Positions 5,419 to 22,295 of a DNA stretch of 64,000 nt are shown piece after piece (position 1 is the first letter of the stretch; the number at the start of each line of letters is the position of its first letter). Source of the DNA: the human T2T-CHM13v2.0 reference genome, Homo sapiens. Made by a program: the position numbers and the translations under genes. Location of the stretch: the NCBI RefSeq assembly GCF_009914755.1, contig NC_060947.1; one strand, 5' to 3'. Under the pieces are notes generated by a model, which saw only the letters and a list, made by a program, of their open reading frames with translations, did not search any database and was not told the origin of the DNA.

Positions 5419-9243
<3,825 letters not shown>

Positions 9244-20357: not shown

Positions 20358-20370
20358 AAAAAGTTAAATA

Positions 20371-22282
20371 GGAGCCGGGGCAGGATGGCCCGGCATCTGC
20401 TCCATGGAGCTCACAGCCCAGCCTAGGCTGGCAACTCCAGTCTGCCCCAGTTTCCAGTTCTGTCCATTCCCCTTGCAGCTCAGCATGGATGAAGCTTTGA
20501 AATCCAGCTCTCCCTCTCCCTCTCCCGTCTCCCCACGGTCTCCCCCGTCTCCCCACAGTCTCCCTCTCCCTCTCCCGTCTCCCCACGGTCTCCCTCTCCC
20601 TCTGTTTCCACGGTCTCCCTCTCATGCCGAGCCGAAGCTGGACTGTACTGCTGCCATCTCGGCTCACTGCAACCTCCCTGCCTGATTCTCCTGCCTCAGC
20701 CTGCCTAGTGCCTGCGATTGCAGGCACGCGCTGACACGCCTGACTGGTTTTCGTATTTTTTTTGGTGGAGACGGGGTTTCGCTGTGTTGGCCTGGCCGGT
20801 CTCCAGCTCCTGACCGCGAGTGATCCGCCAGCCTTGGCCTCCCGAGGTGCTGGGATTGCAGACGGAGTCTCCTTCACTCAGTGCTCAATGGTGCCCTGGC
20901 TGGAGTGCAGTGGCATGATCTCGGCTCGCTACAACCTCCACCTCCCAGCCGCCTTCCTTGGCCTCCCAAAGTGCCGAGATTGCATCCTCTGCCCGGCCGC
21001 CACCCTGTCTGGAAAGTGAGGAGCGTCTCTGCCTGGCCGCCCATCGTCTGGGATGTGAGGAGCCCCTCTGACTGGCTGCCCAGTCTGGGAAGTGAGGAGC
21101 GTCTCCGTCCGGCCGCCATCCCATCTAGGAAGTGAGGAGCGCCTCTTCCCGGCCGCCATCCCATCTAGGAAGTGAAGAGTCGGGCTGCCCATCGTCTGAG
21201 ATGTGGGGAGTGCCTCTGCCCTGCCGCCCCGTCTGGGATGTGAGGAGCGCCTCTGCCCGGCCGCGACCCCGTCTGGGAGGTGAGGAGCGTCTCTGCCTGG
21301 CCACCCCGTCTGAGAAGTGAGGAGACCCTCTGCCTGGCAACCGCCCCGTCTGAGAAGTGAGGAGCCCCTCTGCCCAGCAGCCGCCCCGTCTGAGAAGTGA
21401 GGAGCCTCTCCGCCCGACAGCCACCCCGTCTGGGAAGTGAGGAGCGTCTCCGCCCGGCAGCCACCCCGTCCGGGAGGGAGGTGGGGGGGTCAGCCCCCGC
21501 CCAGCCAGCCGCCCCATCCGGGAGGGAGGTGGGGGGGTCACCCCCCTGCCCGGCCAGCCGCCCCGTCTGGGAGGGAGGTGGGGGGGTCAGCCCCCCGCCC
21601 GGCCAGCCACCCCGTCCGGGAGGTGAGGGGCGCCTCTGCCCAGCAGCCCCTACTGGGAAGTGAGGAGCCCCTCTGCCCGGCCAGCCGCCCCGTCCGGGAG
21701 GGAGGTAGGGGGGTCAGCCCCCCGCCCGGCCAGCCACCCCGTCTGGGAGGTGTGCCCAACAGCTCATTGAGAACGGGCCAGGATGACAATCGCGGCTTTG
21801 TGGAATAGAAACGGGGGAAAGGTGGGGAAAAGATTGAGAAATCGGATGGTTGCCGTGTCTGTGTAGAAAGAAGTAGACATGGGAGACTTTTCATTTTGTT
21901 CTATACTAAGAAAAATTCTTCTGCCTTGGGATCCTGTTGATCTGTGACCTTACCCCCAACCCTGTGCTCTCTGAAACATGTGCTGTGTCCACTCAGGGTT
22001 AAATGGATTAAGGGCGGTGCAAGATGTGCTTTGTTAAACAGATGCTTGAAGGCAGCATGCTCGTTAAGAGTCGTCACCACTCCCTAATCTCAAGTACCCA
22101 GGGACACAAACACTGCGGAAGGCCGCAGGGTCCTCTGCCTAGGAAAACCAGAGACCTTTGTTCACTTGTTTATCTGCTCACCTTCCCTCCACTATTGTCC
22201 TATGACCCTGCCAAATCCCCCTCTGTGAGAAACACCCAAGAATGATCAATAAAAAGTAAATAAATAAATAAATAAATAAATA
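20371..22282 (+). mobile_element. Full-length SVA (late D / E-like) with 5' extension
   Basis: CCCTCT hexamer region from 20508, Alu-like domain, GC-rich VNTR (~20985-21750), SINE-R, AATAAA at 22248 and a (TAAA)n tail. 13-bp TSD AAAAAGTTAAATA at 20358-20370 and 22283-22295. Confidence 0.98.
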
Positions 22283-22295
22283 AAAAAGTTAAATA

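What the first reader, a model, noticed from the sequence alone, without database searches (positions are those of the whole stretch)
20371..20507. SVA carries a 137-bp 5' transduction of non-SVA sequence
Seen: the 13-bp TSD (20358-20370 / 22283-22295) encloses 137 bp of GC-rich non-SVA sequence (GGAGCCGGGGCAGGATGGCC...GAAGCTTTGAAATCCAG) ahead of the CCCTCT hexamers. It starts with G and ends in TTT/GAAATCCA, which looks like the source element's own endonuclease site and left TSD. It contains two ATGs; the one at 20404 reads into the SVA as a 93-aa ORF. Established: SVAs acquire 5' flanks through upstream promoters or exon trapping (e.g. MAST2 in SVA_F1). Inference: this insert marks the transcription start and locus of a germline-active source SVA and may define a transduction family. 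I do not recognise the sequence.
Basis: partly seen in the sequence, partly recalled or inferred. Interest (0 to 1): 0.8.

Follow-up and report, generated by a model that had tools for sequence, protein, structure and literature searches.

The report
Catalogued SVA with chr6-derived 5' transduction
This human-specific SVA retrotransposon carried along 136 bases copied from chromosome 6 when it jumped to the X chromosome, an ordinary kind of event that a published table already records for this very element.

Summary
A 13-bp target-site duplication (20358-20370 / 22283-22295) encloses an untemplated G (20371), 136 templated non-SVA bases (20372-20507), a full-length SVA and an A-rich tail.

The 136 bases are 99% identical (135 of 136) to one non-SVA locus, T2T chr6:36,759,546-36,759,681 (minus strand). 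That locus continues into unrelated DNA at the exact base where the SVA hexamers begin. It holds no SVA in CHM13, so it is an empty parent site.

Nine SVA copies in CHM13 share the junction CCAG|CTCTCC, with 5' ends 17 to 239 nt upstream of it. Three independent copies start at the same Inr-like A. Four start behind untemplated G or GG.

The family was active for at least three generations. The chr17 copy, in a TOM1L2-like intron, gave rise to chr3:51.89 Mb by exon trapping. That copy gave rise to chr4:112.9 Mb by 3' transduction.

It is not new: Damert 2018 (PMC6139936, Additional file 2) lists this element as hs_SVA_D5b, absent from chimpanzee and gorilla, "5'TD from chr6".

Still open are whether a source SVA once sat at the chr6 site and which copy was the chrX element's direct donor. 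Interest is low.

The parts
20358..20370 (+). 5' target-site duplication AAAAAGTTAAATA, preceded by TTTT (L1-endonuclease-like TTTT/AAAAA)
   Evidence: the only 2 copies in the window, 0.02 expected
20371..20371 (+). untemplated G at the 5' end of the insert (the parent locus has A here)
   Evidence: [quoted passage not shown]
20372..20507 (+). 136-nt templated 5' transduction copied from T2T chr6:36,759,546-36,759,681 (minus strand)
   Evidence: 135 of 136 identical to the parent; 100% identical to the chr17, chr6:74.8M and chr2 copies
20508..20622 (+). SVA 5' hexamer-type region (CTCTCC units mixed with CGTCTCCCCACGGTCTCC units)
   Evidence: all siblings begin at the same junction CCAG|CTCTCC
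20623..20985 (+). SVA Alu-like region (boundaries approximate)
   Evidence: 96-97% identical to the siblings; Damert 2018 Additional file 2 gives the Alu-like part as hg19 chrX:51,022,196-51,022,558
20986..21745 (+). SVA VNTR (periods of about 37-49 bp)
21746..22253 (+). SINE-R part ending in the AATAAA signal (22248-22253); start approximate
   Evidence: Damert 2018 lists the SINE-R as hg19 chrX:51023330-51023820, subfamily hs_SVA_D5b
22254..22282 (+). A-rich tail of (TAAA)n type, a trait shared with several siblings
22283..22295 (+). 3' target-site duplication AAAAAGTTAAATA

Best explanation
The element at 20371-22282 is a full-length, human-specific SVA_D (hs_SVA_D5b) inserted by the L1 machinery into a TTTT/AAAAA site on chrX. 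Its RNA template started upstream of the SVA proper. The cDNA therefore carries 136 nt of non-SVA sequence plus a cap-derived G. That sequence comes from one locus at chr6p21, T2T chr6:36,759,546-36,759,784 minus strand (about hg38 chr6:36.939 Mb).

Inferred: an SVA once inserted there, immediately 3' of ...CTTTGAAATCCAG. Transcripts that started 17-239 nt upstream, mainly at an Inr-like A 210 nt upstream, read through it to the SVA poly(A) signal and were retrotransposed. The source allele is missing from CHM13, which has a clean empty site, so it was probably lost or never fixed.

Shown: TD-bearing daughters were themselves sources (chr17 to chr3:51.89M to chr4:112.9M). The chrX copy may therefore descend either from the chr6 source or from a longer-TD daughter, through a start inside the transduced sequence.
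For: TSD, poly(A) signal, tail and endonuclease-like site.

Parent locus. Identity is 135 of 136 and ends exactly at the first hexamer base. No SVA lies in the 7.5 kb downstream. The only SVA-like match in the 2.2 kb fetched upstream is an about 280-bp match, in reverse orientation, to the SVA's Alu-like part at the edge of the stretch; I read it as an ordinary Alu and did not check it.

Family. Searches with 137, 103 and 66 nt found 8 SVA copies plus the parent. A 17-mer search found 12 places: 9 SVA copies, the parent and 2 unrelated chance hits.

Independent insertions. The TSDs differ: chr17 AAAAGAATTTCC, chr2 AAAAGAATATACC, chr6:74.8M AAAAATGG, chr12 ACATGTA(A), chr14 AAATAGT, chr3:51.89M AAAGAAGTTTAAGAAGACCTA, chr4 GAAAGAGAATTT.

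5' ends on the parent: 239 nt; 210 nt in three copies; 203, 201, 136 and 17 nt. Untemplated G or GG occurs in 4 copies (chrX, chr2, chr3:46.5M, chr4). The chr3:51.89M copy also has an untemplated G ahead of its TOM1L2-like exon. The shared 210-nt start is the A of TCATTCT, which fits the Inr consensus as I recall it.

No GT follows CCAG in the parent, so splicing is not the route.

Published record. Damert 2018 Additional file 2 lists this element as hs_SVA_D5b, absent in panTro4 and gorGor5, '5'TD from chr6'.

Age. Private non-CpG differences are about 0.6% per copy, which fits a human-lineage age.
Against: No filled allele of the chr6 site was seen. CHM13 is empty. The hg19 SVA_D table of Damert 2018 has no human row at chr6:36.88-36.93 Mb. 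No non-reference SVA with a matching TSD appears in the 543-insertion set of PMC12593883.

No family member carries a 3' transduction from the chr6 flank, which would prove that an SVA resided there.

All 9 copies share C where the CHM13 parent has T at TD position 32. That fits a later change at the parent, but it also fits descent of all copies from one intermediate copy.

Three linked SINE-R positions split the family into two groups. Neither group matches the G-G-C state that is commonest among the 23 outside SVAs compared. More than one source sequence must therefore have existed.

The region upstream of the start sites has no CpG island or TATA that I could see.
Confidence: 0.85

Rival explanations
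1. The immediate donor of the chrX copy was not the chr6 locus but a TD-bearing daughter, for example the 239-nt copy at chr6:74.84 Mb or a lost copy. Transcription started inside the transduced sequence. On this reading the 5' end marks a start site within a mobile TD, not at chr6p21.
For: Daughters were sources: chr17 to chr3:51.89M and chr3:51.89M to chr4:112.9M, whose RNA began only 17 nt before the junction with GG added. All 9 copies begin at or downstream of the longest TD's start. All share C against the parent's T at TD position 32. Two SINE-R sublineages require at least two source sequences.
Against: The chrX copy belongs to the G-C-C SINE-R group, while chr6:74.84M belongs to the T-G-T group. 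Three copies from both groups start at the same base 210 nt upstream. That needs a template retaining sequence upstream of that base, so a 210-nt copy cannot be it. No diagnostic variant ties chrX to any surviving copy.
Confidence: 0.4
2. The chr6 sequence was joined to an SVA RNA once, by reverse-transcriptase template switching or another chimera-forming event. No SVA ever sat at the chr6 site. The family then spread from that first chimeric copy.
For: The chr6 site is cleanly empty in CHM13. No filled allele turned up in the tables searched. There is no splice donor at the junction.
Against: The junction falls exactly at the first base of a full-length hexamer region. In the parent it lies just 3' of a TTT/GAAA endonuclease-like site, as expected for an ordinary insertion plus upstream initiation. 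The transduced DNA looks like non-exonic, old-repeat-like sequence rather than an abundant RNA. That resemblance is recalled, not tested. Loss of unfixed source elements is a documented outcome; Damert 2018 infers lost source elements for other lineages (passages).
Confidence: 0.1
3. The 136-nt length reflects 5' truncation of a longer (201-239 nt) TD transcript during reverse transcription, not a separate transcription start.
For: 5' truncation is common among SVA copies. Eight of the 15 hs_SVA_D5b rows in Damert 2018 Additional file 2 are marked 5' truncated in the VNTR.
Confidence: 0.15

Closest known systems
SVA 5' transduction groups (Damert et al. 2009, Genome Res 19:1992; this group is noted in Damert 2018, PMC6139936, Additional file 2)
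   Same: Non-SVA sequence lies between the 5' TSD and the hexamers. The same junction is shared by several copies with different TSDs. The parent locus lies elsewhere in the genome. This very element is listed as hs_SVA_D5b with '5'TD from chr6'.
   Different: Nothing differs in kind. Added here: exact parent coordinates in T2T, the empty state of the parent site, the clustered start sites, and three members not flagged there as TD-bearing. The chr17 copy is listed as hs_SVA_DR without a note. The chr6:74.8M and chr2:198.2M copies were not looked for there. The 2009 paper itself was not held; its content is recalled.
SVA_F1 (MAST2 exon 1 fused to SVA_F) and chimpanzee pt_SVA_D6 (STK40 exon 1)
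   Same: A 5' sequence of cellular origin is inherited by a whole SVA lineage (abstract and passages of PMC6139936).
   Different: In those lineages a spliced first exon replaces the hexamer and part of the Alu-like region. Here unspliced flanking DNA sits ahead of a complete hexamer region, and the parent has no GT donor. Copy number is 9, against 84 and 94.
SVA exon trapping (Hancks et al. 2009, Genome Res 19:1983; recalled, not held)
   Same: One family member (chr3:51.89M) is a textbook case. Exon 1 of the TOM1L2-like gene, with a GT donor, is spliced to an AG acceptor 111 nt upstream of the chr17 SVA. Damert 2018 also notes it as '5'TD TOM1L2'.
   Different: The chrX element itself shows no splicing.
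L1 and SVA 3' transduction and concatenated transductions
   Same: Flanking DNA is co-mobilised and can be used to trace source elements. The chr4:112.9M copy carries a 3' TD from the flank of chr3:51.89M. PMC12593883 reports concatenated TDs showing that offspring become sources (passage).
   Different: The chrX element has only a 5' TD. Its tail runs directly into the 3' TSD.

Membership tests
SVA 5' transduction | Non-SVA sequence lies inside the TSDs, directly 5' of a full-length SVA 5' end | tested here: met
   the TSD encloses G + 136 nt + CTCTCC hexamers
SVA 5' transduction | L1-type insertion hallmarks: TSD, poly(A) signal and A-rich tail, endonuclease-like target | tested here: met
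   TTTT/AAAAAGTTAAATA, AATAAA at 22248-22253, (TAAA)n/A tail. The endonuclease consensus is recalled.
SVA 5' transduction | The transduced sequence maps to a unique parent locus whose identity ends at the SVA junction | tested here: met
   chr6:36,759,546-36,759,784 (minus strand); identity stops at CCAG
SVA 5' transduction | A source SVA sits directly downstream of the parent sequence | tested here: not met
   no SVA within 7.5 kb downstream in CHM13; no human row in Damert's hg19 SVA_D table at the converted position. A lost or non-reference source is the usual explanation, but it was not shown.
SVA 5' transduction group | Sibling copies have the same junction but different insertion sites and TSDs | tested here: met
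   9 SVA copies. Distinct TSDs were found for 8 of them; none was found for chr3:46.5M.
SVA 5' transduction | The insertion is absent at the orthologous site of outgroups | not testable with these tools
   No ape genomes are held. Damert 2018 Additional file 2 states 'absent' for panTro4 and gorGor5.
SVA_D, subfamily hs_SVA_D5b | Diagnostic SINE-R substitutions relative to SVA_D/DR | not tested
The assignment is taken from Damert 2018 Additional file 2. Consistent with it, the best SINE-R matches in the genome include places that, by chromosome and approximate position, look like other rows of that subfamily. I did not convert their coordinates.
Exon-trapping SVA (SVA_F1 type) | The 5' part is an exon joined at a splice site, so the parent has a GT donor at the junction | tested here: not met
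   the parent continues CCAG|AGAGGAAG, with no GT. The hexamer region is intact.

The most novel reading that the evidence does not exclude
The chr6-derived sequence is not a passive passenger. It would be a portable promoter, with an Inr-like start 210 nt upstream of the hexamers, that let hs_SVA_D5b copies transcribe themselves wherever they landed. That would make it a small-scale analogue of MAST2 in SVA_F1. Successive generations started ever further inside it (239, 210, 136, 17 nt), which would explain why the lineage died out.
Probability: 0.25. Interest if true: 0.4.

Novelty: already known. Interest (0 to 1): 0.15.

Why it matters
Transductions are the natural barcodes that trace which SVA copies were active in the germline. 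This one links 9 human-specific insertions to a single chr6p21 origin and documents a three-step chain of source elements, including one exon-trapping event. That makes it a tidy worked example. It does not change what is known. 5' transductions are common: 1389 of 7554 polymorphic SVA insertions in PMC10681720, and 58 insertions with a 5' TD alone plus 32 with both 5' and 3' TDs among 543 in PMC12593883. This element is already annotated as such in print.

Tried and rejected
1. Splicing as the origin of the junction: rejected. There is no GT donor in the parent, and the hexamer region is intact.

2. Segmental duplication as the cause of the shared 5' flank of chr17 and chr3:51.89M: rejected. 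Homology starts at an AG acceptor and is preceded by a spliced exon. The 3' flanks differ, and the chr3 copy has its own 21-bp TSD.

3. A 3' transduction from the chr6 flank, which would prove the source's residence: none found in 8 copies.

4. A TSD for the chr3:46.51M copy: none found. Its 5' flank is an Alu that does not continue within the 4 kb after the SVA's 3' end that was fetched.

5. Placing the chr6 locus by gene families. The PF00188 search returned no chr6 hit. The PF07002 search placed CPNE5-like exons about 190 kb away. Neighbouring gene names (C6orf89, PI16) are therefore only recalled.

6. A 25-nt stretch ending at the junction, searched as text in 8.4 million papers: 0 hits.

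7. An open-access search for SVA plus TOM1L2 plus exon trapping: no paper describing the event.

8. Damert 2009, Hancks 2009 and one review were not held. Whether the 2009 genome-wide inventory also lists this group is unchecked.

10. Coding potential of the 93-aa ORF: rejected as low-complexity and frame-variable.

11. The bacterial promoter scanner was not used, because it does not apply to human DNA.

Full report
**What is in the window**

The sequence reads as follows:
- ...TTTGTTTT, then the TSD AAAAAGTTAAATA (20358-20370).
- G (20371).
- 136 non-SVA bases (20372-20507, ending ...GAAGCTTTGAAATCCAG).
- CTCTCC-type hexamers, an Alu-like part, a VNTR with 37-49-bp periods and a SINE-R part ending in AATAAA (22248-22253).
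- A (TAAA)n/A tail, then AAAAAGTTAAATA again (22283-22295).

The 13-mer occurs only at these two places in 64 kb. The expected number is 0.02, and 0 of 100 shuffles gave 2. The one refinement is that the first of the 137 bases is not templated.

The 93-aa frame from the ATG at 20404 exists. It is a Ser/Pro-rich read-through of the hexamers. In 2 of 7 siblings it runs into a different frame after the hexamers, and in the parent locus it continues into unrelated sequence. I see no case for a gene.

**Where the 136 bases come from**

A search of the window's own assembly found 8 further places at 99-100% identity. Seven are followed, at exactly the same base, by CTCTCC hexamers. One is not: chr6:36,759,546-36,759,681 (minus strand) continues CCAG|AGAGGAAGATCAGGG....

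That locus has no SVA in the 7.5 kb downstream. The only SVA-like match in the 2.2 kb fetched upstream is an about 280-bp match, in reverse orientation, to the SVA's Alu-like part at the edge of the stretch. I take it for an ordinary Alu and did not check it.

The SVA-linked copies extend the match into the chr6 sequence by different amounts, up to 239 nt. The chr6 locus is therefore the parent, and in CHM13 it is a clean empty site. There is no duplicated GAAATCCAG and no A-tail remnant.

CCAG is not followed by GT, so the junction is not a splice. The endonuclease consensus is recalled.

Using the 11-bp TSD of a nearby non-reference SVA_E (PMC12593883 Table S2) as a landmark, the parent lies at about hg38 chr6:36,938,965-36,939,203. 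This rests on one landmark. From memory that is between C6orf89 and PI16; this was not tested.

**The family**

Searches with 137, 103 and 66 nt found the same 8 SVA copies plus the parent. A 17-mer search found 12 places: those 9, one more SVA copy on chr4, and two unrelated chance hits without an SVA.

| Copy (T2T) | Templated TD | Extra 5' bases | TSD |
|---|---|---|---|
| chr6:74.84M | 239 nt | none | AAAAATGG |
| chr17:17.86M | 210 nt | none | AAAAGAATTTCC |
| chr12:100.26M | 210 nt | none | ACATGTA(A) |
| chr3:46.51M | 210 nt | G | none found |
| chr2:198.18M | 203 nt | G | AAAAGAATATACC |
| chr14:57.37M | 201 nt | none | AAATAGT |
| chrX (this window) | 136 nt | G | AAAAAGTTAAATA |
| chr4:112.9M | 17 nt | GG | GAAAGAGAATTT |
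| chr3:51.89M | 210 nt inside a longer, nested TD | G, ahead of the trapped exon | AAAGAAGTTTAAGAAGACCTA |

Three independent copies begin at the same A, in the context TCATTCT, which fits the Inr consensus as I recall it. Four begin behind untemplated G or GG. [quoted passage not shown] These are the properties of transcription start sites, not of random truncation.

**Generations**

The chr3:51.89M copy shares its 5' flank with the chr17 copy, but only from an AG acceptor 111 nt upstream of the chr17 SVA (...ttttgcag|AAAATGCC). Ahead of that it carries about 105 nt matching chr17:17,918,939-17,919,046. That stretch is a first exon with an ATG (MEFLLGNPFSTPVGQC...) and a GT donor.

The exon has a paralogous match on chr22. 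A VHS-domain exon lies downstream on the same strand at chr17:17.84 Mb. This is the TOM1L2 gene; the name is recalled, and Damert's table also uses it. The chr17 copy therefore sat in intron 1, trapped exon 1, and was retrotransposed to chr3.

The chr4:112.9M copy carries the chr3 copy's tail, part of its 3' TSD and about 1.9 kb of its downstream flank, ending in its own poly(A). It is a daughter of chr3:51.89M by 3' transduction.

At least three successive generations are thus documented.

**Substructure and age**

Over 1004 aligned non-VNTR positions, each copy has 3-14 private differences. Private non-CpG changes average about 0.6%. All 9 copies share C where the CHM13 parent has T at TD position 32.

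Three linked SINE-R positions split the copies into two groups:
- G-C-C: chrX, chr12, chr3:46.5M, chr14.
- T-G-T: chr17, chr3:51.89M, chr6:74.8M, chr2.

The commonest state among the 23 other SVAs compared is G-G-C. That comparison set was retrieved with the chrX copy as query, so it is biased towards it. More than one source sequence or allele must therefore have existed. I cannot say which one produced the chrX copy.

**What is in print**

Damert 2018 (Mob DNA 9:30, PMC6139936) is the key source. Of it I saw the abstract, passages, the reference list and Additional file 2. Sheet 'homo' of that file reads: hs_SVA_D5b, chrX:51023330-51023820 (hg19), panTro4 absent, gorGor5 absent, "5'TD from chr6", Alu-like chrX:51,022,196-51,022,558.

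These coordinates fit the window element within a few bases. The conversion uses a recalled hg19 position of NUDT10.

The same note is given for copies on chr12, chr14 and chr3:46.5M. For chr3:51.89M it reads [quoted passage not shown]. The chr4 row says "3'TD IQCF2".

The chr17 copy is listed as hs_SVA_DR without a note. I did not look for the chr6:74.8M and chr2 copies in that table. No human row lies at hg19 chr6:36.88-36.93 Mb.

5' transduction of SVAs in general is well established. PMC10681720 counts 1389 events among 7554 polymorphic insertions (passages). PMC12593883 reports TD groups and concatenated TDs (passages).

The founding papers, Damert 2009 and Hancks 2009, were not held. What I say of them is recalled.

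**Verdict**

The thing is an ordinary, already catalogued SVA 5' transduction.

- the exact parent coordinates and the empty state of the parent site in T2T-CHM13;
- the start-site cluster;
- three family members not flagged as TD-bearing in the 2018 table;
- the base-level anatomy of the chr17 to chr3 to chr4 chain.

Two things remain open. The first is whether a source SVA really sat at the chr6 site. That is inferred, at about 0.75-0.8, against about 0.1 for a one-off chimera. The second is whether the transduced sequence has promoter activity of its own.

Noticed in passing
L014 (G000:C3:51890200-51897400), about 275-2500; L009 (chr17); L018 1501-1608: The chr3:51.89M sibling is a second-generation copy. 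Exon 1 of a TOM1L2-like gene (GT donor) is spliced to an AG acceptor 111 nt upstream of the chr17 SVA. The copy therefore carries exon 1, chr17 intron sequence, the chr17 copy's own TSD and the chr6 TD. It is flanked by a 21-bp TSD and starts with an untemplated G.
   Followed up: yes
L051 (G000:C4:112893000-112902500), minus strand: A ninth family member: GG, then only 17 nt of the chr6 TD, then the SVA, then about 1.9 kb of 3' transduction from the flank of the chr3:51.89M copy; TSD GAAAGAGAATTT. The first 3'-TD junction uses GT/AG sites. The second skips about 2.3 kb of the chr3 sequence without canonical splice sites (a deletion, or a later insertion at chr3); this is unexplained.
   Followed up: partly
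L015 (G000:C3:46508900-46516100): The chr3:46.51M sibling has no recognisable TSD. Its 5' flank ends inside an Alu, and the Alu does not continue within the 4 kb after the SVA's 3' end that was fetched. This could be a target-site deletion or rearrangement at insertion.
   Followed up: partly
window 22254-22282 and the 3' ends of L010, L011, L012, L015: Several siblings share a (TAAA)n-type tail instead of pure poly(A). The pattern looks inherited from the source, since each AATAAA in it can serve as a poly(A) signal, and is not a sign of old age.
   Followed up: no
window 20656-21207: The RefSeq 'enhancer' feature in the hub's table lies wholly inside this SVA (Alu-like part and start of the VNTR). 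It describes the repeat, not unique DNA.
   Followed up: no
G000:C6:36766550 (L050): A non-reference SVA_E listed in PMC12593883 Table S2 (hg38 chr6:36,945,969, TSD TAAAAGTTGGG) maps about 7 kb from the parent site. Its TSD and subfamily are unrelated, so it is not the missing source.
   Followed up: yes
L013 about 7545-7785 (parent locus): The transduced chr6 sequence resembles, from memory, the antisense 3' end of an old L2/MIR-type repeat (cattcattca...cctaccaggtgcc...ggagctcacag). NCBI leaves it unmasked in the window. This was not tested.
   Followed up: no
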